Origin: Winogradskyella sp. 3972H.M.0a.05
GTDB taxonomy: Bacteria > Bacteroidota > Bacteroidia > Flavobacteriales > Flavobacteriaceae
Assembly: GCF_040493455.1 (NCBI RefSeq)
Contig: NZ_JANFDA010000003.1
Location: 347,592-371,591 of the forward strand
Length of the DNA: 24,000 nucleotides
Reading direction: 5' to 3'
Numbering within the stretch: position 1 is the first letter of the stretch; each line of letters starts with the position of its first letter. Shown here piece after piece: positions 4,547 to 21,278 of this stretch. Made by a program: the position numbers and the translations under genes. The notes beneath the pieces are model-generated. The model did not search any database, was not told the origin of the DNA, and saw nothing but the letters and a program-made list of their open reading frames with translations.

Positions 4547-4720
4547 GTAGGCAATTTAAGTTATTTCAGAAATAATGAAACATTTTTTTGTAATTTGAAA
4601 AAAATCCCTCAGATTTGCATCTATGATTGATTAAGCTTACTTCCGGTTCTGTCGATTTTATCGACCCTTAGACATCAAACAGGCAATGTTTGATATTCTC
4701 TATATATTTATAATTCAATC

Positions 4721-6289: not shown

Positions 6290-6352
6290 GAAAGAAAATA
6301 ATAGCATGTAAATATATATAGTTTCGTAATTTTAAGGACAGATAAATTTATC

Positions 6353-7528: not shown

Positions 7529-8247
7529 AATTAGATATACTAGCTATAGGTGCACACCCAGATGATGTAGAATTGGGTTGTGGTGCTACAATTGCTAAAG
7601 AAATTGCAAATGGAAAGAAGGTTGGAATCATAGATCTCACCAGAGGAGAACTTGGAACCAGAGGTACTGCAGAGACTAGAGATGAGGAAGCGACAGATGC
7701 TGCAAATATTCTTGGTGTTTCTGTAAGAATAAACATGGGATTTGCAGATGGCTTTTTTGTGAATGATAAGCAACACCAAATAGAGCTCATCAAAGAAATA
7801 CGCAAGTATAGACCAGAGATTGTACTGTGTAATGCCATAGAAGATCGACATATCGATCATGGTAGAGGTAGTAAGTTGGTCAGTGATGCATGTTTCCTAA
7901 GTGGACTTGTAAAGATAGATACTAAGCATGATGATGTAGATGGTTGGCAAGACCCTTGGCGACCAAAGTTTGTGTATCATTATATTCAATGGAAAAATTT
8001 GGAACCAGAAATTGCAGTAGACGTTACTGGCTTTATAGATAAAAAGATGGCAGCTGTTTTGGCTTATAAAACCCAATTCTTTGATCCAGATAGTAAAGAA
8101 CCTGAAACACCAATTTCTAGCAAGAATTTTACAGATAGTATTAAGTACAGAGCCAGAGATCTTGGTAGATTAATTGGCACAGAGTATGCAGAAGGGTTTA
8201 CTGTAGAGCGATATCCTGCAGTGGATAGTTTGTTCGATTTGAAATAA
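7525..8247 (+). CDS. bshB1: bacillithiol biosynthesis deacetylase BshB1 (LmbE/PIG-L family)
   Basis: It carries the N-terminal LAIGAHPDDVELGCGATIAK motif (AHPDD zinc motif), then IDLTRGELGTRG, EDRHIDH and YAEGF near the C-terminus. These are colinear with Bacillus BshB1 as I remember it. The start ATG overlaps the upstream stop (ATGA at 7525-7528). Confidence 0.8.
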   Translation: MKLDILAIGAHPDDVELGCGATIAKEIANGKKVGIIDLTRGELGTRGTAETRDEEATDAANILGVSVRINMGFADGFFVNDKQHQIELIKEIRKYRPEIVLCNAIEDRHIDHGRGSKLVSDACFLSGLVKIDTKHDDVDGWQDPWRPKFVYHYIQWKNLEPEIAVDVTGFIDKKMAAVLAYKTQFFDPDSKEPETPISSKNFTDSIKYRARDLGRLIGTEYAEGFTVERYPAVDSLFDLK

Positions 8248-8287
8248 TTTTAGTCGAAAAGGTTTTGTAAAAACAAGACAAAACAAT

Positions 8288-8295
8288 TACATTTG
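8288..8295 (+). promoter_or_regulatory. Bacteroidota-type -7 box (TACATTTG) for tRNA-His, with TTTG at 8264-8267 as a candidate -33 element
   Basis: The sequence matches the TAnnTTTG consensus of Bacteroidetes sigma-A promoters. It lies 17 nt upstream of the tRNA, and a TTTG lies 20 nt upstream of the box. Confidence 0.5.
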
Positions 8296-8311
8296 CAGTC
8301 CTAATTTAAAT

Positions 8312-8386
8312 GGTGGTTGTAGCTCAGTTGGTTAGAGCGCCTGATTGTGGTTCAGGAGGTCGTCGGTTCGAGACCGATCTTCCACC
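8312..8386 (+). tRNA. tRNA-His (anticodon GTG) with genome-encoded G-1
   Basis: I folded the cloverleaf by hand. The acceptor is GTGGTTG/CTTCCAC with G-1 opposite C73, and the D arm is GCTCAGTTGGTTAGAGC. The anticodon arm is CCTGA-TTGTGGT-TCAGG and the T arm is GTCGG-TTCGAGA-CCGAT. Positions 5:68 and 6:67 are U-U. The supplied ORF 8310-8519 is an artefact of this gene. Confidence 0.88.
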
Positions 8387-8390
8387 CAAA

Positions 8391-8448
8391 ATAAAAGCCT
8401 TTCAGTTATCTGAAAGGCTTCTTTTGTATATAGTGTTTTTAGATTTAG
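8391..8448. repeat. junction repeat copy 1 (hairpin plus right flank)
   Basis: By hand alignment, 8391-8448 matches 10108-10164 at about 52 of 58 positions with one 1-nt indel. The shared sequence is ..AAGCCTTTCAGnnnnCTGAAAGGCTTCTTTTGyATATAGTGTTTTAGATT. Confidence 0.7.
8395..8426. terminator. bidirectional intrinsic terminator hairpin (hairpin-element copy 1)
   Basis: The structure is AAGCCTTTCAG-TTAT-CTGAAAGGCTT (8395-8420). It is followed by CTTTTG on the plus strand and by TTTATTTTGGG on the minus strand. It lies between the convergent tRNA-His gene and the 8502-9959 gene. Confidence 0.65.
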
Positions 8449-8501
8449 TGGTAACGTCTCCAACTATGAATCGTTTTAATGGCTTATGCAAATTGATTGA
8501 C

Positions 8502-9959
8502 TTAGTCTTTTGTGTTTAACAATTTATTTAATTCTGTCTTACTTAAATATTGTCCTCGTTGAACTAGTCCACTTATCGTTAATGTGTTTTCAATGTTTTT
8601 CATTGGGTTCTTGTCAAGGATTAAAATGTTTGCAGTTTTACCTTCTTCAATAGTTCCAAGTTCATCCTCGCGTTCAACATATATAGCAGGATTCAAAGTA
8701 GCCGTTTGCAAAGCTTCCAACTCGGTAAAACCAGCTTTAACAAAAAGGGCTAGTTCATCATGTAATGTAAACCCTGGATATATATTTGGATTACTAGTAT
8801 CTGTCCCTGCTAAAAATTTAGAGCCATTATCCAACATGGGCTTTAAATAAGACATTGTTAGTTCAAAAAAAACTTTCTCAACTTCACTTGATTCTTTACT
8901 AGCTACTAAATAGGATGGTGCTCCATCTTCTGTTATGTCTCCAAACCAGTACTCTTGTTCTTCCTTTGGAATGTATTTTAACCTTGGATCATGCTTAAAA
9001 ATAGAATCAATTTCTTCATTGACAATATAAGATTTCAAAAGTGATAAGGTCGGACAAAACCAAGTGTTCTCTGATTTTGTGATAGTAAGAATATTATCTT
9101 TTAAGTTGCTGTCAAAGGCTTCAAGAAAAGCTTCTGTATACGTATTAATATCTAAATCTTTATGGGTGTTTATAAAAGATTTATAATCAGCAATACCATG
9201 CTCTAATCCTATCGAATGTTCTATGCTCTTTTGGCCAGCTAAGATTCCTTCTTCCGCTGTGACTTGCAATGGAAGGTGTCCTGCAAATTTAAAGTCTAAC
9301 TTCTTGCACTCATCTGCAATGGCCTGATAGGTCTCATAACTGAGGAAATTATAAACCTTTACAAAGTCATATCCTTTCTCATAATATTCCCTTACCAGTT
9401 TGCGGCCTTCTTCGGGATTTGAGGCCACTCTGGCTCCTGGCCAAGTTTCACCTGGCCCATCGGTTATTGGGCTAGAATAAAGAAATTCAAAACCTCTATA
9501 AAATCCATCCTTCCTATTTTTTTTGATGTCTTCGATTCCCTTATCTGAACCATGCATACATCTTAATCCTGTAATTCCTAAAGCAGTGTATCTATCCAGT
9601 ACCCAATCCTTACCCCATAGATGAGCGTGCATGTCCCACAAACCAGGGATGATGTATTTATTACTTGCATCAATTAGGGTGTCAGTAGTCCTTAAGTCCT
9701 TATCGTGGTGGGTGATTTTCAGAATTTTATCCTTATTAATCCAAATGTCACGATGTTCTAGAATTTCTCCTGTTTTTACATCTATGATATTGCCGTTTGA
9801 AACAATTGTATGGTTAACTACAATATCTTCTTGACATGAGAGCCCCAAAAGAAACAATGCTAATATTAATGTTAGTTTAATTTTCACTGATTTTGAAGTA
9901 AGTCCAACGGTTTGTGTATAGTTTTCAATTATAGAAATCACCGAAATAAAGTTAGTCAT
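8502..9959 (-). CDS. amidohydrolase family lipoprotein (imidazolonepropionase/prolidase-like metal hydrolase); start uncertain (ATG 9959 or GTG 9887)
   Basis: It has PGLWDMHAHL (HxH), a later HSIGLEHG, GTDTSN and a C-terminal GTIEEGKTANILILDKNP, all typical of Amidohydro_1 proteins. A signal peptide with lipobox LFLLGLSC begins right after the in-frame GTG at 9887, so the 24 aa upstream may not be translated. Confidence 0.8.
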   Translation of the reverse strand: MTNFISVISIIENYTQTVGLTSKSVKIKLTLILALFLLGLSCQEDIVVNHTIVSNGNIIDVKTGEILEHRDIWINKDKILKITHHDKDLRTTDTLIDASNKYIIPGLWDMHAHLWGKDWVLDRYTALGITGLRCMHGSDKGIEDIKKNRKDGFYRGFEFLYSSPITDGPGETWPGARVASNPEEGRKLVREYYEKGYDFVKVYNFLSYETYQAIADECKKLDFKFAGHLPLQVTAEEGILAGQKSIEHSIGLEHGIADYKSFINTHKDLDINTYTEAFLEAFDSNLKDNILTITKSENTWFCPTLSLLKSYIVNEEIDSIFKHDPRLKYIPKEEQEYWFGDITEDGAPSYLVASKESSEVEKVFFELTMSYLKPMLDNGSKFLAGTDTSNPNIYPGFTLHDELALFVKAGFTELEALQTATLNPAIYVEREDELGTIEEGKTANILILDKNPMKNIENTLTISGLVQRGQYLSKTELNKLLNTKD

Positions 9960-10066
9960 TTAGTTTTCGCATAAATCACAATGTCCTACTAAATTCATTA
10001 ATACTTTAGTACAGTTTTCGATTTTCGTTCATATTTCGCCCAATGTAATTGTATATACAATATATG

Positions 10067-10074
10067 CAAATTTA
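10067..10074 (-). promoter_or_regulatory. candidate -7 box TAAATTTG (minus strand) reading toward the 8502-9959 gene
   Basis: The plus-strand caaattta is TAAATTTG on the minus strand and matches TAnnTTTG. The corresponding position in copy 3 (13467-13474) reads TAAATTTA. Confidence 0.4.
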
Positions 10075-10110
10075 TAAGTATAATCCCGCATACTCTAGGT
10101 TCGAAATATA

Positions 10111-10138
10111 GAAGCCTTTCAGTATTCTGAAAGGCTTC
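10111..10138 (-). terminator. hairpin-element copy 2, probable terminator of the 10205-10909 gene
   Basis: GAAGCCTTTCAG-TATT-CTGAAAGGCTTC forms a 12-bp perfect stem 67 nt past the stop codon. The minus-strand tail (CTATATTTCG) is only moderately T-rich, whereas the plus-strand tail is TTTTG. Confidence 0.5.
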
Positions 10139-10204
10139 TTTTGCATATAGTGTTTTAGATTGAGCAAGTGACACTAGGAGTTAAGCTTATTATTGTATGA
10201 GGCT

Positions 10205-10909
10205 TTATAGACCATTTTTGCTTTTCCAATTACTCATTGTCGTTGGATGGTTATTATCAGTAGGATAATTCTGATTTATAAAGTCTAGTTGTTTTAATGT
10301 TAGCAGTACAAACATCCCATCATTGCCACAACTAATTGGATAAAACTGTTCGTCCGAATTTTGTCTCTTCAGTTCTGCGTTCAACATTTCTATGAAATTT
10401 ACATAGGCAATTCCCCAATCAAGATCTGAAAATGGTCCATCGAAGGCTATATATTCAATCCCGTTCAGTTCGATCGTATGTTTCCAGTTGTTCTGACCTT
10501 GCAGGCTATTTTCATATGCAAATTCTAATTTCAGGTCAAGTTTTTCAAACGTCGGTTTTACTAGGTTTAAATATTCTGTTAGTCCACCTGTTTCAAAAAG
10601 TTCTTCACAGTCTATCCAATGGAAGCGGTTATCCATAAAATACAATGTTTCTCCACGCGTAGGGCCTTGAAAGAAATTCAAGTCCGTGTATGCTTTCTCA
10701 ATATCAAACTTAACCGTATCCAATTCAGATTCTTTAGTCAAACTGAAATACCCTAACTTTTCTAATTCTGTTACTACTTCTTTTCCGCTTAGTTTCTTTT
10801 GAATTGCTTTCTCTGGATTTTGATTTTTGATTTTAGAAACCGTATTATCTTTTTTGGAATTACAGGCTAAAAATGTGAGAAGCAATATGGTTAGAAAAAT
10901 ATGTTTCAT
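10205..10909 (-). CDS. hypothetical lipoprotein (about 235 aa from ATG 10909)
   Basis: The signal peptide MKHIFLTILLLTFLAC is followed by NSKKDN. The listed start at 10948 adds 13 residues ahead of this signal and is less likely. I recognise no family for the mature part. Confidence 0.6.
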   Translation of the reverse strand: MKHIFLTILLLTFLACNSKKDNTVSKIKNQNPEKAIQKKLSGKEVVTELEKLGYFSLTKESELDTVKFDIEKAYTDLNFFQGPTRGETLYFMDNRFHWIDCEELFETGGLTEYLNLVKPTFEKLDLKLEFAYENSLQGQNNWKHTIELNGIEYIAFDGPFSDLDWGIAYVNFIEMLNAELKRQNSDEQFYPISCGNDGMFVLLTLKQLDFINQNYPTDNNHPTTMSNWKSKNGL

Positions 10910-11009
10910 TGAGTTTTGTAAGATTGTTAACAATGGTTTTAGTATCATTCCGTAGTAACAACCAATTTAGCAAAAAGACTTGATAAACTGTGTTAGAGAT
11001 TCATCTGGA

Positions 11010-11579
11010 TTAGTTATGCATGTTATTAGTTACTGTGATTTTTGTTACAATATTTTTGTAATATTCTAAAATCAACTTACTTGAAAATAATTCAAATTCG
11101 AAATTATATGAATACTTATTGGTCTGTTTTTGTGGAATTCCAAATACTTTTTGAAAATCTTGAATAGTAGAACCAATTTTTAATTCGTTTTTAAACGGAA
11201 AAGACTCTAGGCTAGTCTCAAAATGATATATTTCAAAGCCATTTGTTCCAAAAGTCCAAGTTGAATCCGTTTTGAAGACCGAGGATTTCATCTCTGCTAT
11301 TTTTTCTCCTTTGTGCATGTATTTACAGTCGTAGTATACTCTCACAGAGATTTTTAAATTATAGGGGTTTTGATTTTCACTGGTTTTACATTCAATTTCG
11401 TATTGAAGATTGTTTATTATCAAATTATTTCGTGGGTCTTTAAGAAAATCCTTAACTACAATGGTATCAATTACAATATTCGAGTCTGTGTTCAATCCAT
11501 TTTGACTTTTCTTATAGGTACAATTAATAATACAAGTCAATGTTAATATTAAAGATATTTTTTTAATCAAAGGTGTCAT
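11010..11579 (-). CDS. hypothetical lipoprotein (189 aa)
   Basis: The N-terminus MTPLIKKISLILTLTCIINC has Cys candidates for lipidation and is followed by a beta-rich, Asn/Lys-rich sequence. I recognise no family. Confidence 0.55.
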   Translation of the reverse strand: MTPLIKKISLILTLTCIINCTYKKSQNGLNTDSNIVIDTIVVKDFLKDPRNNLIINNLQYEIECKTSENQNPYNLKISVRVYYDCKYMHKGEKIAEMKSSVFKTDSTWTFGTNGFEIYHFETSLESFPFKNELKIGSTIQDFQKVFGIPQKQTNKYSYNFEFELFSSKLILEYYKNIVTKITVTNNMHN

Positions 11580-11672
11580 AATTACAGCTAATGGTCCTCA
11601 GTAATAGGTAATTATTTTTTGCTTACAGTATTAAACCACAATGAATTATAACCATTGTTTGTGCATCAGTTT

Positions 11673-11927
11673 TTATTTGTCATACCAGGAGTAAACTAAC
11701 TCGGTTATTTCTTCGACATTATTTTCACTAATAGTAAGTCCATAAGTTGTAATTAATTCACTCGATATTACTCTTTTAATTTTCTCCAAGTCGTAACCAT
11801 TTTGTAGGTCAAGAATTAGTTTTCTACTCAACTTTTTAAAAGAATGACTGTCGCCAGATAGCATAATGTCCGTCTGATATATGATTTTACTTAGTGCATT
11901 AATATTTTGTTCGTCAAGAATTTTCAC
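11673..11927 (-). CDS. hypothetical small cytoplasmic protein (84 aa, GTG start)
   Basis: This ORF fills the gap between two same-strand genes and looks helical. It has no signal peptide and no upstream in-frame ATG. I recognise no family. Confidence 0.45.
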   Translation of the reverse strand: MKILDEQNINALSKIIYQTDIMLSGDSHSFKKLSRKLILDLQNGYDLEKIKRVISSELITTYGLTISENNVEEITELVYSWYDK

Positions 11928-11960
11928 TTAGTTTCTTTATGTAGTTATAAAAACTTAATG

Positions 11961-12437
11961 TTATTCTGGAATAGGATCTCCTTCTCCAGGTTTTAAAATT
12001 GAAAACGCCCAATCGGTAGATTTTGGAACATTTAATTTATCGAGCCACTCTCCACCTAATCCAGCAACTTGTATTTTATTATCAATTACTTCTAACCCTT
12101 CTGTTTCTCCAAAGAAGAATTGAATTCCGTTGTCGAGCGCAACACCCATTGTGTCTGGTATTTTAAATACATAACTTTCGTTTGGCTTAATTATCACTTT
12201 TTCATTTGCACTAATTGAATTTGCAGTTTCATTGAAAATAAAAATGTTATATACTTTCCCTGTCGCATTATATGTTTCAGGTTTGATAGTTTCTCCGCTA
12301 TAATTTGGATTAATATAAACCTTATTATTTTGTGTTTCTTCGCTCTCGTTCTGCTTATTTTCCATTTTTGATTTACATTGGAAAAAGAAAATTGTGACAA
12401 GAGCCGATATGTATACTAAATGTTTTCTGTTTTTCAT
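11961..12437 (-). CDS. hypothetical secreted protein or lipoprotein (158 aa)
   Basis: The N-terminus MKNRKHLVYISALVTIFFFQC is followed by KSKMENKQNESEE, a charged post-Cys region like Bacteroidota surface lipoproteins. I recognise no family. Confidence 0.55.
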   Translation of the reverse strand: MKNRKHLVYISALVTIFFFQCKSKMENKQNESEETQNNKVYINPNYSGETIKPETYNATGKVYNIFIFNETANSISANEKVIIKPNESYVFKIPDTMGVALDNGIQFFFGETEGLEVIDNKIQVAGLGGEWLDKLNVPKSTDWAFSILKPGEGDPIPE

Positions 12438-12477
12438 TTTTTAATTACGTAGAATGGTCTCAAATAAGAACAGTGAT

Positions 12478-13413
12478 TTAAGACCACAGTTTTTTCCACC
12501 AAGATTTACTTTTGTTATTACTACTGTTTTCTAATTTACCACTTGCCTTATCATTGTTTTCAGGAATTATTTGCAGCTGGCTTTTTTCTTTATTCTCAAA
12601 TTGGCTCAATAATTTATCTTCCTCATCTAGTTTGTCATATGCGTCAGCCTCAGTTAAGTGTCCATCTTGATCACTAATTCTGGTCAATTCTTTTCCTTGT
12701 CTGAAGACCAATTGGAGTCCATGTTCTTGTTCCCATTCACATTCACAAGTTACATTAACATAAATGTCTTCATCTCTTCGGTGTCTTCTAGTTACATATA
12801 TATCTTGGGCGTAAATAAAATTCCATATTTTATTTTTCTCTTTGATATCCCAAAGTGGTTGGTCAGCTTCATCATATCCAATAGCATTTAGGAATTCCAT
12901 ACAATTCTGATATGCAAGTTCACTGAGCTTTAGCCTGTCATTAGTTTTCTTTTCCAAGAATAACTTTAAAGCTTTATCAGCCTCATCTATAAATCTCGAG
13001 TCGTTTTCGAGAATCAAGTCCATAAATGTGATTTTCAGTTTTTTATGGTCAAAGAATGGGATTTCTATAGGTTCACTTTCCCACCAATCATCGAATTGAT
13101 CATTTTGGAACAGAGTTCCAATTACTTCACTTGTTATAAAATTTCTTGAGTTAGATTCCCATTCGTTCTCAAAATCAGTTTTTGAGATTTCAAACTCATT
13201 AAATTCTTCTAAATCCAATTCTTGATCACCTAAACCTCCATACTTGTCTTCAGTATTGTTTTTACTATATTTTAAAATAACTCCATTATCATATTTTTCG
13301 ATCTGTCGTAATGGGAAACCTGTCTCATCTGTTTCAAAAAAAAATGTAGAAAAGCCCCAATCATTAAATTGATCACCCCTTTTTTCGGTCCATTTTCTCT
13401 TGAAGTATTTCAT
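12478..13413 (-). CDS. hypothetical two-module cytoplasmic protein, possibly related to immunity proteins
   Basis: There is no signal peptide. The N-terminal module of about 90 aa reads MKYFKRKWTEKRGDQFNDWGFSTFFFETDETGFPLRQIEKYDNGVILKY...FEISKTDFENEW. The central module ends in VNVTCECEWEQEHGLQLVFRQGKELTRISDQDGHLTEADAY. The tail is low-complexity and ends KSKSWWKKLWS. The resemblance to DUF families linked to polymorphic-toxin immunity comes from memory and is unverified. Confidence 0.5.
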   Translation of the reverse strand: MKYFKRKWTEKRGDQFNDWGFSTFFFETDETGFPLRQIEKYDNGVILKYSKNNTEDKYGGLGDQELDLEEFNEFEISKTDFENEWESNSRNFITSEVIGTLFQNDQFDDWWESEPIEIPFFDHKKLKITFMDLILENDSRFIDEADKALKLFLEKKTNDRLKLSELAYQNCMEFLNAIGYDEADQPLWDIKEKNKIWNFIYAQDIYVTRRHRRDEDIYVNVTCECEWEQEHGLQLVFRQGKELTRISDQDGHLTEADAYDKLDEEDKLLSQFENKEKSQLQIIPENNDKASGKLENSSNNKSKSWWKKLWS

Positions 13414-13466
13414 AAGTTATTATTTTCCTAGGTTTGCTCCCAAGGTATATGCATTCGCAATATATA

Positions 13467-13474
13467 TAAATTTA
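13467..13474 (-). promoter_or_regulatory. candidate -7 box TAAATTTA (minus strand) upstream of the 13413 start
   Basis: It is a near match to TAnnTTTG, lies 53 nt upstream of the ATG at 13413, and is positionally equivalent to the box in copy 2. Confidence 0.35.
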
Positions 13475-13511
13475 TAACTATAATACTGTATGTTTAAGTT
13501 TCAAAATATAA

Positions 13512-13537
13512 AAGCCTTTCAGGTAACTGAAAGGCTT
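13512..13537 (-). terminator. hairpin-element copy 3, terminator of the 13564-14094 gene
   Basis: AAGCCTTTCAG-GTAA-CTGAAAGGCTT lies 27 nt past the stop codon. The minus-strand tail is TTTATATTTTG. Confidence 0.6.
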
Positions 13538-13563
13538 AGTTGTTTTTATAGTAAAGCTTAATG

Positions 13564-14094
13564 CTATTCTGATTTTTCATACGCTTCTTTTAGCCATTCT
13601 ATAAGTTCAGTGTCTACATCTTCTACAGTATTTAATCGCACTCTATGCGTACACATAGAACCAAATGGACCCGAATTCTCAAGACGCTCAGTAAGGGCTT
13701 TTCCTTTTAGCTTTAAACCTAAATCGATGCGTGTTTTGGTTGCAGGTTTTATTAATGCAAATTGTCGTTTTCTAATACAGCTCACACTATCTTTTTTTGG
13801 AGTGACTGTGATATCATTTCCAAACTCATTAATTTGTTCTAGAAGCTTTTCGTAAATCGGCTTTAAGTGTTCTTTTCCTTTGTATTGGTTGGTTAATAGG
13901 CTTTCATCATCTATAGAACCAGCATCCGATTTTCTGGCTTTTAGAGATACAAAATTTGCGTATCCGTGAGTGAAACCATGTTCAGATTTTAAAAAGTCTA
14001 CAATAGCTTTGTGCTTTTCAATCTTTGACGCTTTTACAACGTTTATCCAGTGATCTATTGGTTTTCCAGTTTTTTCAAGTATTCCTTTTTCCAT
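13564..14094 (-). CDS. DUF4287/DUF5655-like protein
   Basis: The N-terminal KTGKPIDHWINVVKASKIEKHKAIVDFLKSEHGFTHGYANFV matches the DUF4287 pattern as I remember it. The C-terminal half resembles DUF5655. Confidence 0.6.
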   Translation of the reverse strand: MEKGILEKTGKPIDHWINVVKASKIEKHKAIVDFLKSEHGFTHGYANFVSLKARKSDAGSIDDESLLTNQYKGKEHLKPIYEKLLEQINEFGNDITVTPKKDSVSCIRKRQFALIKPATKTRIDLGLKLKGKALTERLENSGPFGSMCTHRVRLNTVEDVDTELIEWLKEAYEKSE

Positions 14095-14106
14095 TGTTTT
14101 ATGTTT

Positions 14107-14517
14107 TTACCAGGCACCAAGTATAGCGCCCATTAGTGTTAATGCTACGATGCAGTATCCTGCATTTATTATATATGCTTTTAGTGATTTCATTTCAAAT
14201 AGGTATAGTATTCCGAGCATTGTGGCTACCCAACCAAAACCTGTAAAGAAACCAGCTAGAGTTCCAAATGTTACATCTGCCTCAGATCCAATGAACATTT
14301 CTAAAATCAATGCTGCAATACATGCGAGGAGTAAGGAGAGTCCAAAAGTTTTTGGGACACTTCTCTTTTTTAAATCTTCTTCGGTAACACCAAATTCGGT
14401 CATCCAGCCTTTCCCAAATAGTGGTCCATACCAGATGCCTCCAATTAAAAATGATGACACCGCAGCTACTATAACCGAAAGCCAGTTAATGTTTTCTACT
14501 GCTGTTGCTAAATCCAT
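14107..14517 (-). CDS. DUF1761-family membrane protein
   Basis: It has four hydrophobic helices. The N-terminal NWLSVIVAAVSSFLIGGIWYGPLFGKGWM is the characteristic DUF1761 opening. Confidence 0.65.
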   Translation of the reverse strand: MDLATAVENINWLSVIVAAVSSFLIGGIWYGPLFGKGWMTEFGVTEEDLKKRSVPKTFGLSLLLACIAALILEMFIGSEADVTFGTLAGFFTGFGWVATMLGILYLFEMKSLKAYIINAGYCIVALTLMGAILGAW

Positions 14518-14582
14518 AAATCATAATGTTTTAAATTAAAGTACAAGTCTACTTTAATCTAATTTTACTGGATAGTAAAAAA

Positions 14583-15416
14583 TTAACCTTGCCTGTCTAA
14601 GGGGAAGAAATTCTTCTCTTCATCGTTATGAAAGTTCTGTTGTATGAACTTTTGAGGGTTTATTCCCGAGAAGTGTTTGAACTCTTTTATAAAGTGTGAT
14701 TGATCTGCATATTCGCATAGATAAGCAACTTGTGACCATTCAATCTTTTCTGTTTGATGAATTTGTTGTAGAATTTCATTAAATCGTAGAATTCTCTGGT
14801 AATATTTTGGCGTTAAGCCTACATATTTTTTGAATTGATCTATGAGATGCTTTTGCGTTTTTGAATAGTCTTGAATGATCTTATGATAGTTTGCGACAGA
14901 CTCGGTTTGCAATTTTTCTAAGACACCCAATAATTCAGTAGGAGGAATTCGATCTTCTTGAAATCTATTAGCAAGCCAATTCTCAGCTACTTCAAATTTT
15001 TCTTCTGAGGTTGCCTTAACTAAGATATCTTCTCTTAGTGTCAAGATTTCGGTTCCAAATACCTGTTCTGCTGGGACTACTTTGTCATTTAGTTCTTGAA
15101 TAGGAACATGGAAAAACGGATAGGCTCCATAGGGTTTAAACTGAATGACGAACATTTCGGATTTTTGGTGCGCAGAAATTGAAATGTAATTTTTGTGCAT
15201 TCCAGACACCCAAACTTTTGTAAATGTATTGTTCGGTTTCAGGGTTTCATTATCAAAGGTATTTCGAACAAAACCATCTAATTCAAAGATGATGAAGATA
15301 TGCCCTGTTGGCACTACACGTTCAATAGAATGATCTGGAACAAAGTCTTTAAAATGAAAAATGGATTCAATGTAGTTGCTTATAGTTCCTTTTATGTCAT
15401 GTGTTTTAAAAATCAT
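14583..15416 (-). CDS. AraC/XylS family transcriptional regulator
   Basis: The C-terminal double HTH region (LIDQFKKYVGLTPKYYQRILRFNEILQ ... AYLCEYADQSHFIKEFKHFSGINPQKF) is typical of AraC regulators. The N-terminal domain of about 170 aa is presumably ligand-binding. Confidence 0.85.
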   Translation of the reverse strand: MIFKTHDIKGTISNYIESIFHFKDFVPDHSIERVVPTGHIFIIFELDGFVRNTFDNETLKPNNTFTKVWVSGMHKNYISISAHQKSEMFVIQFKPYGAYPFFHVPIQELNDKVVPAEQVFGTEILTLREDILVKATSEEKFEVAENWLANRFQEDRIPPTELLGVLEKLQTESVANYHKIIQDYSKTQKHLIDQFKKYVGLTPKYYQRILRFNEILQQIHQTEKIEWSQVAYLCEYADQSHFIKEFKHFSGINPQKFIQQNFHNDEEKNFFPLDRQG

Positions 15417-15437
15417 TAGCTGTATTCAGTTTGAGTT

Positions 15438-15932
15438 CTATTGATTCACAAAAGTTTCGTTTAGCACAGTTGTTTCTCTTAAGTCAACGTTCTGTTCGAT
15501 TACAGATTTTAGGTTGGTGAGAAAGAACACCCAACATACGCAGCAATTTATAAATGAAAATTCATTTTCTGCTGTTGGATTTAAGTTTTTCTGATGTAGA
15601 TGCAAAATAGTACTGCCGGATTCATGTCTTTCTAAACTGAATAGAACTGTAAAATCTTTACCAAACGTAAATTCGAAATAGGAGTCATTCTCAGAAGCAA
15701 TAATTTCACCTTCAATTTGAAAATCCTTTTGCCATTTCCATAGATATGCTGTTCCGCTTGAAGGTACTTCGGTAGCGCTTAGTTGCTCATTTTGGCTTGA
15801 AAACTTTACGTTTCCAAGAAACCAAGATTCCAATCCTTGAGCAGTCGCTACACATTGATAAACATCTTTAATTGTTGTATGTAGCAATATTTTGTGGCTG
15901 AATTCACTTTTTGAAAAATCTTCTTGCCTCAT
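15438..15932 (-). CDS. SRPBCC superfamily (AHSA1/START-like) protein
   Basis: Its size of 164 aa and pattern (VYQCVATAQGLESWF ... YLWKWQ ... EGEIIASENDSYFEFTF) resemble Aha1-domain/SRPBCC ligand-binding proteins. The start overlaps the upstream stop (ATGA at 15929-15932). Confidence 0.55.
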   Translation of the reverse strand: MRQEDFSKSEFSHKILLHTTIKDVYQCVATAQGLESWFLGNVKFSSQNEQLSATEVPSSGTAYLWKWQKDFQIEGEIIASENDSYFEFTFGKDFTVLFSLERHESGSTILHLHQKNLNPTAENEFSFINCCVCWVFFLTNLKSVIEQNVDLRETTVLNETFVNQ

Positions 15933-16471
15933 AATAAACCCGCTTTAAATTTTAGTTTTAGAGGTTTTAAACACCCTGGTAAATCCATAGCTCGTCTCCA
16001 AACGGTTAGCTGCGAAATGTGATTGGTTTCGTGCCAGGCAGCCATAAAGTGGATGACTTCAAGTTTGGTAGGAAAAACGGTATCAAAAGACCAGTTCATC
16101 TTTTCCTGAAGAAACTCTTCACTACGATCGTTGAGCAAATCGATTTGTCTTTTGTGGCTTTCCAGATACTTTTTTAATAGCGCTTCTTTGGTAGGGTATA
16201 GGGTTTCGTCTGCTTGTGGAGTTCTAGGATCTCCAGGACCTGTTCTTCTAAAAACCTTAATCCACGCTTCTGGAGTTGTATTCTTATCACCTAATATTTC
16301 GCATGACATTTCTGAAGCATCATAAAGATGTCCAATAGTCCATGCTGGATGATTTTCTATGCCTTTAGATGGAATGATTGACATTTGACTATCTGGAACA
16401 TCTTCGACCAATAATTTTAGGTGTTCTTCATTTAAGCGTAAAGACTTTTTTATTAATTCTATTGGATTCAT
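15929..16471 (-). CDS. DinB-superfamily protein
   Basis: A four-helix-bundle pattern carries His residues (HPAWTIGHL ... AAWHETNHISQL) typical of DinB_2-like metal-binding proteins. Confidence 0.6.
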   Translation of the reverse strand: MNPIELIKKSLRLNEEHLKLLVEDVPDSQMSIIPSKGIENHPAWTIGHLYDASEMSCEILGDKNTTPEAWIKVFRRTGPGDPRTPQADETLYPTKEALLKKYLESHKRQIDLLNDRSEEFLQEKMNWSFDTVFPTKLEVIHFMAAWHETNHISQLTVWRRAMDLPGCLKPLKLKFKAGLL

Positions 16472-16496
16472 AAGATCTTAGCTGCAAATTGAGTAG

Positions 16497-17000
16497 TTAC
16501 TTATTTTCAAAATAAAAGTCTGTCCACATAGACCTCCAGATTTTCCAGGAATCATCTGATTGTTTCTTGTAGATTGTAGTATTAATGCCTTTTTGAAGCA
16601 TTCCGAAACGGATAGTATCTTTTTGATAAGTCCAGTCGAGTATTGAGTTATGAGTAGAAATAGCCAAGGTATCTAATACTTTCAAACTAATGATTTCGGT
16701 TTGAAAATCGTGAACTGTGGTTACCGAACTATCCTTTGGAAACCAAAACTTTTGTATTTCAGATTTTCCTTCAACAGGACTTAAACCACTTGGTTGTATA
16801 CGTGCGTCTTCTTCTAGAAGATTTAGTATTTTATCTTCATCCATTTGCAACCATCCATCGACATAGTCTTTATGAACTTGTATTATGGCTTGCTCTTCTT
16901 TGTCAATTGACTCTTTTGATTGTTCTTTATTACAACCAACACACAAGCATAATATAAATAATGATAAAAAAATATTTGAGAAGATTCTATCTATTTTCAT
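16497..17000 (-). CDS. SnoaL-like / NTF2-fold (DUF4440-like) lipoprotein
   Basis: The signal peptide has the lipobox LCVGC. The mature part (IIQVHKDYVDGWLQMDEDKILNLLEEDARIQPSGLSPVEGKSEIQKFW) fits the NTF2-like cone fold pattern. Confidence 0.6.
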   Translation of the reverse strand: MKIDRIFSNIFLSLFILCLCVGCNKEQSKESIDKEEQAIIQVHKDYVDGWLQMDEDKILNLLEEDARIQPSGLSPVEGKSEIQKFWFPKDSSVTTVHDFQTEIISLKVLDTLAISTHNSILDWTYQKDTIRFGMLQKGINTTIYKKQSDDSWKIWRSMWTDFYFENK

Positions 17001-17110
17001 GTTTATTAATATGAGTTTAAGTATTTGAATACCATTTAAGCGTATGCTCTAATATAGTAAATATGTAGAAGTATTCATTAGAGGGTTTTTAGAGGATTAA
17101 ATAACAAAAA

Positions 17111-17138
17111 AAAGCCTCCCAGTAATCTGAAAGGCTTT
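17111..17138 (-). terminator. hairpin-element copy 4, terminator of the 17166-18764 peptidase gene
   Basis: The plus strand reads AAAGCCTCCCAG-TAAT-CTGAAAGGCTTT. On the minus-strand RNA the two plus-strand C-A mismatches become G-U pairs, and the stem is followed by a T-rich tract (TTTTTGTTATTT). It lies 28 nt past the stop codon. Confidence 0.7.
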
Positions 17139-17165
17139 ATAGTTTTTTATAGAAAAAAAGCTGTT

Positions 17166-18764
17166 TTATTCGCTAGCTTCAGCTTTATCCACTACGATAC
17201 GTTCATCACGGTTGGCTAATTCCCAAGCAGTATGAAATACTAATCGCGCTCTATTCTCAAGCAAATCATATTCGATTTTATCTGGAGTATCGGTTATTTT
17301 GTGATAATCATCATGGGTACCATTGAAATAGAAGATTACTGGGATATTATTCTTTGCAAAGTTGTAATGATCTGATCTGTAATAGAAACGATTTGGATCA
17401 TTTTCGTCATTGTACTTGTAGTCCAACTCTACATTGCAATATTTTAAGTTTACGTCTTCTGAGATGTTATGTAACTCTGTACTTAGCTTGTCACTACCAA
17501 TGAGGTAAACATAGTTCCTATCTCCAGTTTTGCGTTTGGGATCAACACGACCGATCATATCTATATTTAGATTGGCAACCGTGTTTTCTAATGGGAAAAT
17601 CGGATCCATATCTGTGTAATATTTTGAGCCTAACAAGCCTTTTTCTTCACCAGTGACATGTAAAAACAAGATTGAACGTTTTGGACCGTGACCATTTTTT
17701 TGAGCTTCTTTAAAGGCTTCAGCAATTTCTACAACCGCAACTGTACCAGAGCCATCGTCATCTGCACCATTGAAAACTTCTTTATTTTCATCTACACCGA
17801 CGTGATCTAAATGTGCAGATATCACGACAATTTCATCAGGCTTTTCTGAGCCCTCAATGAATGCTACTACATTTTCTGAAGTGAAATCTTTAGATGAATT
17901 TTCAATATCAATAGTTAAGTTTGCTGTAATTGATTTTGGAGTATGGTCATTAACGATTTTATCATAAATTACTTTAGCAAATACACTATCTACTAAAAAG
18001 AAAGGTGCATTTTTTCCATTGTCTTTTAATGACATTCTCCCGCCTTGTGAAGCATAGGAGGTCGAAGAATTATATATTGTTGAATAATAAGTAGCATACC
18101 TTGGAAAGATAGCTTCATCCATAAGTAGTATAGCTCTAGCACCTTTATCTCTCGCCAAGTTACGTTTAGAGAACATAGATTGTCTACCACCAGACCATTT
18201 TGTTGGCTCGGCTGTACCAGTAGTAACGTAAGTTCCGTCTTCGTTCTTTGCTTCTCCAGCTTTGATTAGAACGACTTTATCTTTTACATCGAGGTCTTTA
18301 TAATCTGAATAGCCTTCAGACTCAACACCGTATCCAGCATAGACAACATCGCTAGCTGTTATAGTTTGTGTAGTGCCGCCCAAAAGGCAAAATTGGTGAT
18401 CGAAAGGAGCGAAGTTTCTATCATTAATGGTTATTGTTGTTTTTGCGACTTGTCGTTTCTGCAAAGGCACTTCTTGGAAATAATCGTCACCCTTCAAAGG
18501 ACTAGGAATTTCCATGGATTGATACTGTGCTTTTAGATATTCTACGGCTTTCTTTTGACCTGGCTCACCAGTCTCTCGACCTTCAAACTCATCAGAAGCA
18601 TAGACATAAAGCATGTCTTTTATTTCATCTGCAGTAATGGTTTCGGCATAGACCACAGGATCCGCAGGAGCATTATTTTTTTCTTTAGAGACTTTGTTAT
18701 GTGCTGATGGACCACAACCTGTAATTAGTAAACCAGCAGCTAGAAGTGCAAAAATTGATTTCAT
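17166..18764 (-). CDS. M28 family aminopeptidase lipoprotein with an inserted PA (protease-associated) domain
   Basis: The lipobox is LLITGC. The M28 zinc-ligand blocks are ISAHLDHVG, NGADDDGSGT, HVTGEEKGLLGS, NIDMIG and RSDHYNF. An extra segment of about 190 aa (VVYAGYG...KDKVVLIKAGE) sits where PA domains occur. Confidence 0.85.
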   Translation of the reverse strand: MKSIFALLAAGLLITGCGPSAHNKVSKEKNNAPADPVVYAETITADEIKDMLYVYASDEFEGRETGEPGQKKAVEYLKAQYQSMEIPSPLKGDDYFQEVPLQKRQVAKTTITINDRNFAPFDHQFCLLGGTTQTITASDVVYAGYGVESEGYSDYKDLDVKDKVVLIKAGEAKNEDGTYVTTGTAEPTKWSGGRQSMFSKRNLARDKGARAILLMDEAIFPRYATYYSTIYNSSTSYASQGGRMSLKDNGKNAPFFLVDSVFAKVIYDKIVNDHTPKSITANLTIDIENSSKDFTSENVVAFIEGSEKPDEIVVISAHLDHVGVDENKEVFNGADDDGSGTVAVVEIAEAFKEAQKNGHGPKRSILFLHVTGEEKGLLGSKYYTDMDPIFPLENTVANLNIDMIGRVDPKRKTGDRNYVYLIGSDKLSTELHNISEDVNLKYCNVELDYKYNDENDPNRFYYRSDHYNFAKNNIPVIFYFNGTHDDYHKITDTPDKIEYDLLENRARLVFHTAWELANRDERIVVDKAEASE

Positions 18765-18793
18765 TTTTAATTAGTCTTTTTTATGGATAAGCA

Positions 18794-18801
18794 CAAATTT
18801 A
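18794..18801 (-). promoter_or_regulatory. candidate -7 box TAAATTTG (minus strand) for the 17166-18764 gene, overlapped by an inverted repeat
   Basis: The plus-strand caaattta is TAAATTTG on the minus strand, 30 nt upstream of the ATG at 18764. The inverted repeat TTAACCT-N7-AGGTTAA spans 18799-18819. Confidence 0.45.
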
Positions 18802-18850
18802 ACCTTTGTATGAGGTTAATGGCTTATGGTTTAACACTATTTTAAAAAAA

Positions 18851-19882: not shown

Positions 19883-19915
19883 GGATTAATAGACAATTTC
19901 TAGCGTTCAAAGAAC

Positions 19916-19948
19916 GTAAAAAAAAAGGTAACTCGGAAGAATTACCTT
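19916..19948 (-). terminator. intrinsic terminator after the 19975-20301 gene
   Basis: On the minus strand, AAGGTAA-N10-TTACCTT is followed by a run of 7 T beyond the stem. It lies 27 nt past the stop codon. Confidence 0.6.
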
Positions 19949-19974
19949 ACTTTATTGTCCTGAAAATCATATTG

Positions 19975-20301: not shown

Positions 20302-20304
20302 CTC

Positions 20305-21268: not shown

Positions 21269-21278
21269 CATCCGCTTA

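What the first reader, a model, noticed from the sequence alone, without database searches (positions are those of the whole stretch)
8391..17138. Four copies of one hairpin-centred junction element split the tRNA-His-proximal region into three same-strand gene blocks
The stem AAGCCTTTCAG / CTGAAAGGCTT occurs at 8395-8420, 10112-10137, 13512-13537 and, with two changes, at 17112-17137. The 4-nt loops all differ (TTAT, TATT, GTAA, TAAT). Each copy sits just past the stop of the last minus-strand gene of a block.

Similarity extends well beyond the stems. 10041-10140 aligns without gaps to 13441-13540 at 74 of 100 positions by hand count, with an offset of exactly 3400 nt. 8391-8448 aligns to 10108-10164 at about 52 of 58 positions. 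Copies 2 and 3 carry a -7-like box (TAAATTTG / TAAATTTA) that reads into the next block.

The layout, read along the minus strand, is: M28 gene, copy 4, six genes, copy 3, five genes, copy 2, one gene, copy 1, then the convergent tRNA-His. This could reflect stepwise cassette accretion next to a tRNA gene. As I remember it, the repeated intergenic units in recombinase-associated immunity-gene arrays of Bacteroidales look loosely similar. It could equally be a genome-wide terminator-promoter repeat family. No recombinase is visible in the window.
Basis: partly seen in the sequence, partly recalled or inferred. Interest (0 to 1): 0.65.

Follow-up and report, generated by a model that had tools for sequence, protein, structure and literature searches.

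The report
Duplicated tRNA-His terminator bounding inserted gene blocks
A strong terminator hairpin that normally sits once between the tRNA-His gene and a peptidase gene occurs four times here, because about 8.7 kb of accessory genes was inserted at that spot in three blocks, each ending in its own copy; this is a tidy case of stepwise gene gain at a tRNA hotspot, not a new kind of system.

Summary
**Observation:** confirmed. The stem AAGCCTTTCAG/CTGAAAGGCTT occurs at 8395, 10112 and 13512 (exact) and at 17112 (two changes). Shuffles give none.

**What the hairpin is:** the intrinsic terminator between the convergent tRNA-His and M28 peptidase genes. The same stem recurs across Bacteroidota directly behind tRNA and 5S rRNA genes.

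**What lies between the copies:** in 13 related lineages (Winogradskyella, Pontimicrobium, Hanstruepera, Gaetbulibacter, Bizionia, Mangrovimonas and others), tRNA-His, the hairpin and M28 are adjacent. None of the 12 genes is there. The 8.7 kb is therefore a lineage-specific insertion.

**Flank homology:**
- Copies 1 and 2 share about 62 nt (90%).
- Copies 2 and 3 share about 118 nt (about 72-75%), including a flavobacterial -7 promoter box.
- Copy 4 shares little beyond the hairpin.
- Homology switches at the hairpin edges and decays with distance from the tRNA.

**Copy 4:** its two changes keep a full stem only in the minus-strand RNA, through G.U pairs. That points to terminator function.

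**Best reading (about 0.5):** stepwise accretion at a terminator-centred junction, with each copy kept as a terminator. The recombination mechanism is unknown and no recombinase is in the window.

**Not supported:** integron or rAID-1 membership. The genome-wide count could not be made because the source contig is withheld.

The parts
8313..8387 (+). tRNA-His (GTG). Its -7 box TACATTTG lies at 8288-8295. The gene is convergent with the minus-strand blocks.
   Evidence: ARAGORN; Rfam tRNA, 58.4 bits; TANNTTTG scan.
8388..8448 (.). Junction 1. It holds hairpin copy 1 (8395-8420), which is the orthologous tRNA-His terminator, plus the 28-nt 'A' flank (8421-8448). It forms a direct repeat with 10105-10164.
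   Evidence: family D1; z=6.5; 52 of 58. The same tRNA-His plus hairpin is seen in 9 relatives, and a variant of it in Winogradskyella-type loci.
8502..9959 (-). Block 1: one amidohydrolase-family gene. The true start is probably about 16-24 codons downstream of the longest-ORF ATG.
   Evidence: Pfam Amidohydro_1 and Amidohydro_3. Homologs are 445-461 aa and align from residue 16-24.
10020..10111 (-). Promoter-side unit 'P', copy in junction 2. It carries an exact flavobacterial sigma-A -7 box, TAAATTTG, at 10067-10074 and reads into block 1.
   Evidence: alignment with 13421-13511, z=11.4; -7 consensus TAnnTTTG from PMC9723704.
10112..10164 (.). Hairpin copy 2 (10112-10137; the stem extends to 13 bp, 10110-10139) plus the A flank copy (10138-10164). 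It lies 67 nt past the stop of the last block-2 gene.
10205..13413 (-). Block 2: five genes of 247, 189, 84, 158 and 311 aa. Only the 311-aa gene has a family hit (DUF6985 plus a weak DUF6881). This is the lowest-GC stretch of the window (0.28-0.33).
13421..13511 (-). Promoter-side unit 'P', copy in junction 3. Its -7-like box TAAATTTA lies at 13467-13474. The unit ends 8 nt before the ATG of the DUF6985 gene.
13512..13537 (.). Hairpin copy 3. It lies 26 nt past the stop of the last block-3 gene and has T-runs on both strands.
13564..17000 (-). Block 3: six genes (DUF4287/DUF5655, DUF1761, AraC-type regulator, AHSA1/SRPBCC, DinB_2, DUF4440). Elsewhere, AraC is found next to DUF1761 or DUF5655 but not next to the other block-3 genes.
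17111..17138 (-). Hairpin copy 4, the terminator of the M28 gene. It carries two T-to-C changes in the plus-strand left arm. The 12-bp stem is continuous only in the minus-strand RNA, through G.U pairs, and is followed by U8.
   Evidence: The same CC variant, in the transcribed orientation, occurs behind a 5S gene in Fontibacter (L072).
17166..18764 (-). M28 peptidase. In relatives it is the direct neighbour of tRNA-His plus the hairpin. A tandem paralog lies at 18851-19882.
   Evidence: Pfam; synteny.

Best explanation
**What the hairpin is.** It is an intrinsic, bidirectional transcription terminator. In relatives it sits once between the convergent tRNA-His and M28 genes.

**What happened here (inferred).** Three promoter-bearing, same-strand gene segments of 1.7, 3.4 and 3.6 kb were inserted at this terminator, one after another. 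Each event went through recombination at or within the hairpin-containing junction, so a complete terminator was left at both ends of each insert.

**What the junctions look like as a result (shown).**
- Each junction is a chimera that switches parent at the hairpin edge.
- Junction 1 is tRNA | hairpin | A.
- Junction 2 is P | hairpin | A.
- Junction 3 is P | hairpin | short flank.
- Junction 4 is an unrelated leader | hairpin | M28 3' UTR.
- Repeat identity falls with distance from the tRNA: about 90%, then about 72-75%, then the hairpin only. This fits the newest segment entering next to the tRNA.

**What the copies do now.** Each copy is kept by selection as the terminator of its block. The P unit supplies a sigma-A promoter for blocks 1 and 2. 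Each block is thus an insulated transcription unit.

**Shown:** the repeat anatomy, the insertion relative to 13 lineages, and the strand-specific conservation of the stem.

**Inferred:** the stepwise order, recombination at the hairpin, and terminator and promoter activity.

**Unknown:** the enzyme, or whether RecA-type short-homology exchange is enough.
For: **Insertion.**
- The window flanks 6350-8430 and 17106 onward are contiguous in Gaetbulibacter, Bizionia (two species), Hanstruepera (two species), Mangrovimonas and three MAGs.
- They are also contiguous in three Winogradskyella-type lineages and in Pontimicrobium. There, only 194-300 nt lie between BshB1 and M28.
- No block gene is found in any of those loci.

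**Local duplication rather than convergence.**
- Flank homology has z=11.4 and z=6.5 with the hairpin excluded.
- Nothing else in the window resembles A or P.

**The hairpin is not the lineage's generic protein-gene terminator.**
- Perfect stems of 9 bp or more are rare. In the window they are only three of the four copies plus the tRNA-Ser terminator (copy 4 has a two-change stem and is not among them). In 13-21 kb loci of relatives, the tRNA-linked hairpins account for one or two of the two or three found.
- Other strong terminators in the window use different stems.

**Selection on the stem.**
- Copies 2 and 3 have 0 of 22 stem differences, while their flanks differ by about 25-28%. The chance of this is about 0.001-0.002.
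- All four loops differ.
- Copy 4's changes keep pairing only in the transcribed minus strand.
- The same wobble variant recurs behind a 5S gene in Fontibacter.

**The site is an insertion hotspot.** Mangrovimonas carries a 373-bp GIY-YIG pseudogene at the same place. It is flanked by a 57-bp direct repeat made of the tRNA-His 3' end plus the hairpin.

**The blocks are accessory.**
- Their homologs sit in unrelated contexts without the hairpin.
- Block 2 has low GC.
Against: - No recombinase, transposase or integrase remnant is in the 24-kb window.
- The repeats do not include the tRNA 3' end, unlike classical tRNA-targeting integrases and unlike the Mangrovimonas case.
- No second genome carrying an A-hairpin-P junction was found. 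Mobility of the units is therefore not shown.
- The four loops all differ. That argues against recent exchange with the loop as the overlap region.
- Pontimicrobium has two separate hairpins between tRNA-His and M28. The second (AAGCCTCCC-N5-GGGAGGCTT) matches copy 4's variant left arm and its A-rich flank. Copies 1 and 4 may therefore have existed before any insertion, leaving only copies 2 and 3 to explain.
- The difference in identity between the A and P repeats rests on small numbers (3 of 28 against about 26 of 90). It does not firmly date the events.
Confidence: 0.5

Rival explanations
1. Local tandem duplication followed by cargo replacement. A unit of the form hairpin - A - gene(s) - P was duplicated in tandem by unequal exchange or replication slippage at the hairpins. 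The genes of one copy were later replaced, leaving homologous unit ends around unrelated cargo.
For: Units 1 and 2 have both ends in common (A next to the hairpin, P at the far end) but unrelated genes. The identities of the A and P repeats are not significantly different given the small counts, so one duplication event could account for both. No recombinase is needed.
Against: It needs a precise replacement of the whole coding part between a 28-nt end and a 92-nt end. There is no trace of amidohydrolase pseudogene sequence in block 2 (one search shows no such repeat). It does not explain block 3 or the initial insertion.
Confidence: 0.17
2. Dispersed intergenic repeat family. The terminator-promoter junction is one member of a genome-wide family (REP/BIME-like or MITE-like), and ectopic homologous recombination among copies brought the blocks here.
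For: The bare hairpin recurs widely in Bacteroidota, several times per genome in some (Pedobacter, Belliella, Algoriphagus). The window's genome could not be searched.
Against: Most multi-copy cases are terminators of rRNA operons or tandem tRNA genes, not dispersed repeats. In the other 15 kb of the window there is no copy of the hairpin, A or P, although several intergenic regions are present. No A or P homolog occurs in 153 fetched loci.
Confidence: 0.15
3. Recombinase-driven cassette array (integron, CALIN or rAID-like) whose recombinase lies outside the window, with the hairpin acting as the recombination site.
For: The array is same-strand, with a palindromic site at the unit borders. 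A 72%-identical amidohydrolase homolog is a cassette in an integron-like array in Tenacibaculum sp. S7007, which ends at an XerA/integron-integrase-like recombinase.
Against: The junctions have no attC architecture: no GTTRRRY box and a single RYYYAAC match. The site is a perfect 11-bp stem with a 4-nt loop and U-tracts, which is a terminator. Repeats occur only at the borders of multi-gene blocks. The Tenacibaculum repeats are unrelated to the window's junctions. Relatives have no recombinase at this locus.
Confidence: 0.08
4. Independent terminators that look alike by convergence. Each block brought its own terminator, and a favoured Bacteroidota stem was selected four times.
For: The same exact stem has arisen or been kept behind many different tRNA and 5S genes, and even in two Firmicutes records.
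Against: Flank homology extends 28 nt and about 90 nt beyond the stem. Homologs of the block genes elsewhere lack the hairpin. Long perfect hairpins are otherwise rare next to protein genes in this lineage.
Confidence: 0.04

Closest known systems
Tandem accretion of integrative elements at a tRNA gene. Examples are arrays of ICEs and integrase-less CIMEs separated by att direct repeats, and genomic islands at tRNA 3' ends. This comparison rests on established knowledge, not on a test here.
   Same: The insertion is immediately 3' of a tRNA gene. A direct repeat sits at every junction. The units lack an integrase. The repeats are most similar next to the tRNA. A neighbouring genus has a textbook version at the same site, with a 57-bp repeat that includes the tRNA 3' end.
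   Different: The repeats start after the tRNA and centre on the terminator. The units are only 1.7-3.6 kb. No integrase is seen anywhere in the window. The repeated part differs from one pair of junctions to the next (A side against P side).
Bidirectional intrinsic terminators at convergent genes
   Same: A perfect G+C-containing stem with an A-run on one side and a T-run on the other, placed between convergent tRNA-His and protein-coding genes. It is predicted as a terminator on both strands.
   Different: Here the terminator is multiplied, and its flanks are duplicated together with inserted genes.
Integron cassette arrays and CALINs
   Same: Same-strand units of unrelated accessory genes separated by a hairpin-forming repeat. 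One cargo gene has a homolog in an integron-like array.
   Different: There are no attC boxes and no extrahelical-base architecture. The units hold several genes and carry their own promoter. No integron integrase is present.
rAID-1 (recombinase-associated acquired interbacterial defence) arrays of Bacteroidales, described in 10.1101/471110
   Same: A co-directional array in a Bacteroidota genome with repeated intergenic sequence. Block 2 has low GC and is mostly uncharacterised small genes.
   Different: There is no 5' XerD-like recombinase. The repeats are not between every gene. No immunity family was detected.
pdif modules of Acinetobacter plasmids: small gene modules bounded by short palindromic Xer sites, with no recombinase of their own. 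Recalled from knowledge and not tested here.
   Same: Small modules without a recombinase, bounded by a palindromic site of about 26-28 bp.
   Different: The site here is a perfect 11-4-11 palindrome with terminator U-tracts, in the same orientation at each border. Nothing links it to Xer.

Membership tests
Intrinsic (Rho-independent) terminator | A stable G+C-containing stem-loop followed by a U-tract on the transcribed strand, placed just after a gene's 3' end. | tested here: met
   Stems of 11-13 bp. The 61-nt plus-strand segments centred on copies 1-3 fold at -18 to -22 kcal/mol (z=-5 to -5.8). All four copies are followed by T-runs on the minus strand, and the plus-strand T-run is clearest at copy 1. 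They lie 26-81 nt after stop codons and 8 nt after tRNA-His. Activity itself was not measured.
Intrinsic (Rho-independent) terminator | The constraint acts on the RNA of the transcribed strand. | tested here: met
   Both of copy 4's substitutions give G.U pairs in the minus-strand RNA and C.A mismatches in the plus strand. The chance that two random stem changes are both of this type is about 1 in 36. The same variant occurs in the transcribed orientation behind a 5S gene in L072.
tRNA-linked genomic island, or tandem accretion with att repeats | The insertion is absent from related genomes at a conserved tRNA locus. | tested here: met
   13 related lineages have tRNA-His, the hairpin and M28 adjacent.
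tRNA-linked genomic island, or tandem accretion with att repeats | Direct repeats at the island borders that include the 3' end of the tRNA gene. | tested here: not met
   The repeats begin about 1-7 nt after the tRNA end. The left flanks of copies 2-4 show no similarity to tRNA-His (z of 0.4 or less), and Rfam finds no tRNA remnant.
tRNA-linked genomic island, or tandem accretion with att repeats | An integrase gene in or next to the island. | tested here: not met
   No Phage_integrase, recombinase or transposase domain was found in the 20 window ORFs scanned, which cover 6353-22685. The ORFs at 76-6127 and beyond 22685 were not scanned. Sequence outside the window is not available.
Integron cassette array or CALIN | attC sites: an imperfect palindrome of 57-141 nt with R'' (RYYYAAC) and R' (GTTRRRY) boxes, one per cassette. 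| tested here: not met
   No GTTRRRY on the gene strand in any junction, and one RYYYAAC in junction 2 only. The site is a perfect 26-nt palindrome. Gaps inside the blocks lack it.
Integron cassette array or CALIN | An integron integrase (IntI) adjacent to the array. This is not required for a CALIN. | tested here: not met
   None in the window.
rAID-1 (10.1101/471110) | [quoted passage not shown] | tested here: not met
   No tyrosine recombinase domain in the window.
rAID-1 (10.1101/471110) | Repetitive sequence in the intergenic regions between array ORFs, and immunity-family genes. | tested here: not met
   The repeat is only at 4 junctions, and gaps inside blocks are -4 to 93 nt without it. 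Pfam gives only DUF hits for one block-2 gene (DUF6985, weak DUF6881) and nothing for the other four. NCBIfam and PADLOC give no hit for any block-2 gene.
Genome-wide intergenic repeat family (REP/BIME-like or MITE-like) | Many dispersed copies of the whole unit in one genome. | not testable with these tools
   The window's own contig (436,513 bp) cannot be fetched. Within the window there is no further copy of the hairpin, A or P outside 8388-17138.

The most novel reading that the evidence does not exclude
The tRNA-His terminator hairpin might serve as the recombination site of a terminator-based cassette system. In that reading, small gene units without an integrase but with their own promoter share a conserved junction of about 150 nt (A - hairpin - P). 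They loop out and re-enter at any copy of the hairpin, through a host recombinase or short-homology exchange. This would be a simple analogue, or a possible precursor state, of integron attC cassettes. It would connect with the idea, recalled from the literature and not tested here, that attC sites and terminator hairpins are recognised by the same elements, such as class C group II introns.
Probability: 0.12. Interest if true: 0.8.

Novelty: new variant of a known kind. Interest (0 to 1): 0.42.

Why it matters
If the stepwise reading is right, this locus shows accessory genes being added one transcription unit at a time at a tRNA hotspot. Each unit arrives with, or acquires, a promoter and a copy of a very strong terminator. 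No integrase is visible and the tRNA end is not duplicated.

That would broaden the accepted picture of tRNA-linked islands. It would also give a concrete, testable case of a terminator doubling as a recombination or insertion point.

Two practical points follow:
- The hairpin is a phylum-wide terminator of stable-RNA genes, which makes it a candidate strong terminator part for Bacteroidota genetics.
- Its wobble variants give a natural test of strand-specific terminator constraint.

If the locus turns out to be ordinary repeat-mediated shuffling, it is simply a well-resolved example of genome flux.

Tried and rejected
1. **Fetching the window's own genome to count copies.** Four exact-protein look-ups returned nothing, although the protein is listed on a 436,513-bp contig.
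3. **Looking for A or P units elsewhere.** None was found in 153 fetched loci or in the rest of the window. The only matches were driven by the hairpin itself.
4. **P as a decayed tRNA gene.** There is no similarity to tRNA-His and no Rfam tRNA hit at E of 1 or less. Rejected.
5. **attC or integron architecture in the junctions.** Rejected. A resemblance between the amidohydrolase 3' region (GGAGACGTTACC) and the Tenacibaculum cassette ends (GAGACCGTTGG) was judged too short to count.
6. **Blocks as conserved mobile units.** Homologs of the amidohydrolase, DUF6985 and AraC genes sit in unrelated contexts. AraC is next to DUF1761 in some loci and DUF5655 in others, but no larger part of block 3 recurs.
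7. **Immunity or defence annotation of block 2.** There were no NCBIfam or PADLOC hits for the five genes, no PDB sequence hit for the DUF6985 protein (the only one searched), and no papers on DUF6985.
8. **Known RNA families in the junctions.** None.
9. **Viral contigs.** One hit: a hairpin next to a tRNA-like 3' fragment on a viral contig, read by eye and not called by ARAGORN. It adds nothing about this locus.
10. **Terminal inverted repeats of a transposon at the unit ends.** None seen by inspection.
11. **The A flank as a remnant of the GIY-YIG gene seen in Mangrovimonas.** Only an 11-nt resemblance. Rejected.

Full report

Yes. A pattern search finds exactly four matches to AAGCCTTTCAG-N4-CTGAAAGGCTT. 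Three are exact (8395-8420, 10112-10137, 13512-13537). One has two mismatches (17112-17137). None appeared in 100 shuffles.

- 74 of 100 positions for 10041-10140 against 13441-13540.
- 52 of 58 positions for 8391-8448 against 10108-10164.

I tested the flanks alone, with the hairpin removed:
- The plus-strand left flanks of copies 2 and 3 are homologous over about 90 nt (10020-10111 against 13421-13511; z=11.4; 0 of 2000 shuffles as good).
- The right flanks of copies 1 and 2 are homologous over 28 nt (z=6.5).
- The right flanks of copies 3 and 4 are only marginally alike (z=2.9).
- The left flank of copy 4 is not like that of copies 2 and 3.

The gene layout is as described. Read along the minus strand it runs: M28, copy 4, six genes, copy 3, five genes, copy 2, one gene, copy 1, then the convergent tRNA-His.

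**2. What the hairpin is.**

All copies fold as strong stem-loops of 11-13 bp. They are flanked by an A-run on one side and a T-run on the other, so they score as terminators on both strands.

Nearly all are Bacteroidota.
- Of 120 occurrences, 36 lie within 20 nt of the 3' end of a tRNA gene. The counts are Val 10, His 9, Leu 5, Met 4 and others.
- About 26 follow the 3' end of 5S rRNA. Rfam confirmed this on five of the seven loci checked.
- In tandem tRNA or 5S arrays the hairpin is repeated with each gene.

The stem is therefore a recurrent terminator of stable-RNA genes across the phylum. It is not a marker of a mobile element.

In the lineage of the window, perfect stems of 9 bp or more are rare. 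In the window they are only three of the four copies plus the tRNA-Ser terminator, which has a different stem. In 13-21 kb loci of relatives, the tRNA-linked hairpins account for one or two of the two or three found.

**3. The region between copies 1 and 4 is an insertion.**

I compared the window with the loci found by the hairpin scan by BLAST. Window 6350-8430 holds cystathionine lyase, BshB1, tRNA-His and the hairpin. Window 17106 onward holds M28. These two stretches are contiguous in Gaetbulibacter, two Bizionia species, two Hanstruepera species, Mangrovimonas and three MAGs.

Loci fetched independently of the hairpin, through the BshB1 protein, give the same answer. Three Winogradskyella-type lineages (85-88% BshB1 identity, dozens of contigs) and Pontimicrobium aquaticum (87%) all show this order: BshB1, tRNA-His, hairpin, M28, M28, a small membrane-protein gene (DUF2232-like in the window and one relative), DUF3108. 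Only 194-300 nt lie between BshB1 and M28.

None of the 12 genes of the interval occurs in any of these loci. The window shares both flanks with them, so the 8.7 kb is a clean, lineage-specific insertion at the terminator.

**4. Anatomy of the junctions.**

In plus-strand order:
- Junction 1 = tRNA-His | hairpin | A.
- Junction 2 = P | hairpin | A.
- Junction 3 = P | hairpin | short flank.
- Junction 4 = unrelated leader | hairpin | M28 3' UTR.

A is a 28-nt flank, CTTTTG(T/C)ATATAGTGTTTT(T)AGATT(T/G)AG. Its first 10-12 nt match the flank found next to the orthologous hairpin in relatives (TTTTGTATAT).

P is a unit of about 92 nt on the promoter side of the next minus-strand block. It holds an exact flavobacterial sigma-A -7 box, TAAATTTG, in junction 2 and a 7-of-8 version in junction 3. 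The consensus TAnnTTTG at -12 to -5 is taken from PMC9723704. Exact matches to the same motif sit just upstream of tRNA-His, tRNA-Ser, M28 and the nitroreductase gene in the window.

The direct repeats bracketing each block are:
- Block 1: about 62 nt at about 90% identity.
- Block 2: about 118 nt at about 72-75% identity.
- Block 3: essentially the hairpin alone.

In each pair, homology breaks within a few nucleotides of a hairpin edge.

**5. Evidence for function.**

Copies 2 and 3 differ at 0 of 22 stem positions, while their flanks differ by about 25-28%. The chance of that is about 0.001-0.002. All four loops differ. The stem is therefore under purifying selection in each copy.

Both changes in copy 4 lie in one arm.
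- In the minus-strand RNA, which is the M28 transcript, they give two G.U pairs and a continuous 12-bp stem followed by U8.
- In the plus strand they give C.A mismatches.
- Only one in six single stem substitutions keeps pairing on a given strand, so two such changes have a chance of about 1 in 36.
- The identical variant occurs, again in the transcribed orientation, behind a 5S gene in Fontibacter.

This points to an RNA-level terminator function and away from a constraint on a DNA hairpin. Terminator and promoter activity were not measured.

**6. Nature of the cargo.**

- Block 1 is an amidohydrolase.
- Block 2 is five small genes. Four have no family, and one has DUF6985 with a weak DUF6881 hit. 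This is the lowest-GC stretch of the window.
- Block 3 holds DUF4287/DUF5655, DUF1761, an AraC-type regulator, AHSA1, DinB_2 and DUF4440.

Homologs elsewhere lie in unrelated contexts without the hairpin. In those loci AraC lies next to DUF1761 or DUF5655, but no larger part of block 3 recurs. The blocks are assortments of accessory genes, not conserved mobile units.

**7. How the blocks most likely got there.**

The chimeric junctions, the switch points at the hairpin, and the decay of repeat identity away from the tRNA fit stepwise insertion by recombination at the hairpin-containing junction. On this reading the newest unit lies next to the tRNA, and each event regenerates a complete terminator on both sides.

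The same site is an insertion hotspot in a neighbouring genus. Mangrovimonas futianensis carries a 373-bp pseudogenised GIY-YIG gene there. It is flanked by a 57-bp direct repeat made of 16 nt of the tRNA-His 3' end, the hairpin and 9 further nt.

I give this reading about 0.5. The points against it are:
- No recombinase is in the window.
- The repeats exclude the tRNA.
- No other A-hairpin-P junction was found anywhere.
- The loops differ.
- Pontimicrobium has two hairpins between tRNA-His and M28. The first is a plus-strand-specific, partly compensated version of the terminator. The second is AAGCCTCCC-N5-GGGAGGCTT, and its left arm and A-rich flank match copy 4. Copies 1 and 4 may therefore be an older pair of unidirectional terminators, with the insertions falling between them. 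Only copies 2 and 3 would then need explaining.

The rival explanations are:
- A local tandem duplication of a terminator-to-promoter unit with later cargo replacement (0.17).
- Membership of a dispersed repeat family in this genome (0.15). This is untestable here.
- A recombinase-driven array with the enzyme outside the window (0.08).
- Convergence (0.04). The flank homology contradicts this for copies 1-3.

**8. Comparison with known systems.**

The locus works like tandem accretion at a tRNA gene. It fails two defining features of that class: repeats that include the tRNA 3' end, and an integrase.

It is not an integron or CALIN. There are no attC boxes, the site is a perfect terminator palindrome, and the units hold several genes with their own promoter.

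It does not meet the published rAID-1 criteria.

One cargo gene has a 72%-identical homolog that is a cassette in a genuine integron-like array in Tenacibaculum sp. S7007. That array has attC-like inverted repeats in many of its intergenic gaps and ends at an XerA/integron-integrase-like recombinase. Its repeats are unrelated to the window's junctions.

**9. Verdict.**

The immunity-array analogy is not supported.

This is a new variant of a known kind: island growth at a tRNA locus, with a terminator rather than the tRNA end as the repeated junction. Interest is moderate. The key missing datum is the copy number and distribution of the hairpin, A and P in the full genome.

Noticed in passing
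L001-L118 (genome-contig hits); for example L050 4452-4477, L056 715-740, L041 4010-4035, L012 1323-1348: The exact stem AAGCCTTTCAG/CTGAAAGGCTT, often with a GAAA loop, recurs across several classes of Bacteroidota directly behind stable-RNA genes. About 26 of 120 occurrences follow 5S rRNA and 36 follow tRNAs (Val, His, Leu, Met, Lys, Asp and others). Such sequence-level recurrence of a terminator stem is unexpected. It may reflect a sequence-specific requirement, or simply a favoured strong terminator.
   Followed up: partly
L078 2341-2770 (Mangrovimonas futianensis NZ_JAJJNF010000008.1): At the orthologous tRNA-His to M28 site there is a 373-bp insert that encodes a pseudogenised small GIY-YIG nuclease (Pfam E=5e-6). 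It is flanked by a 57-bp direct repeat made of 16 nt of the tRNA-His 3' end, the hairpin and 9 further nt.
   Followed up: partly
L124 1-14586 (Tenacibaculum sp. S7007 JACGLS010000009.1): A same-strand array of about 14 small genes, mostly without a family, plus a 72%-identical homolog of the window's amidohydrolase. Several families of repeated intergenic elements recur along the array, and where paired they form attC-like inverted repeats (CAACACCGTATATAAT ... TATACAAACACGTTGTA). The array ends at an XerA/integron-integrase-like tyrosine recombinase that is cut by the contig end. It looks like an integron-like array in a flavobacterium.
   Followed up: partly
window 21396-22049: A 167-aa gene on the minus strand (21424-21927), with no Pfam or PADLOC hit, sits between the tRNA-Ser terminator and the nitroreductase promoter. 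It is absent from the two Winogradskyella-type loci inspected, where only about 35 nt separate those two features. This is a second small lineage-specific insertion next to a tRNA terminator, this time without a duplicated hairpin.
   Followed up: partly
L153 10880-11000 (Pontimicrobium aquaticum SUPL01000004.1): There are two hairpins between tRNA-His and M28. The first is AAAGTCTCTCA-GAAA-TGAGGGGCTTT, which carries one compensatory pair change and two wobble pairs valid only on the tRNA strand. The second is AAGCCTCCC-N5-GGGAGGCTT, next to M28. The second looks like the fully compensated form of the window's copy 4, which suggests evolution through G.U intermediates.
   Followed up: partly
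L072 3344-3369 and 3661-3686; L028 1976-2814: Fontibacter flavus has the same TT-to-CC wobble variant as copy 4, behind one of two tandem 5S genes. Pedobacter jejuensis has seven copies of the hairpin at a spacing of about 116 nt in a tandem tRNA array; at least two of the tRNAs are tRNA-Lys.
   Followed up: no
L130 5416-9690, L133 and L137 (Winogradskyella-type loci), compared with window 7528: The Winogradskyella-type relatives carry three minus-strand genes (DUF2490, PEPCK, Na/sulfate-type symporter) between the cystathionine lyase gene and BshB1. The window, Pontimicrobium and several other relatives lack them.
   Followed up: no
window 17166-18764 and 18851-19882: The two M28 peptidase genes are tandem paralogs, with DNA repeats at about 70% identity (17355-17435 against 19028-19108). 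The pair is conserved in relatives.
   Followed up: no
window 17033-17110 against 21398-21475 (reverse orientation): There is weak similarity (67.5% over 80 nt, E=8e-4 within the window) between the leader upstream of block 3 and the region just past the tRNA-Ser terminator. An example is TTAAGCGTATGCTCTAATATAG against TCAAGCGTATTCTATTAATATGG. The sequence is AT-rich and this may be chance.
   Followed up: no
L152 45-120 (IMGVR_UViG_3300045988_168516): This is the only viral-contig hit to the hairpin. It lies next to what reads by eye as a tRNA 3' fragment (ARAGORN called no tRNA in the locus). It looks like a prophage end captured with the host tRNA terminator.
   Followed up: no
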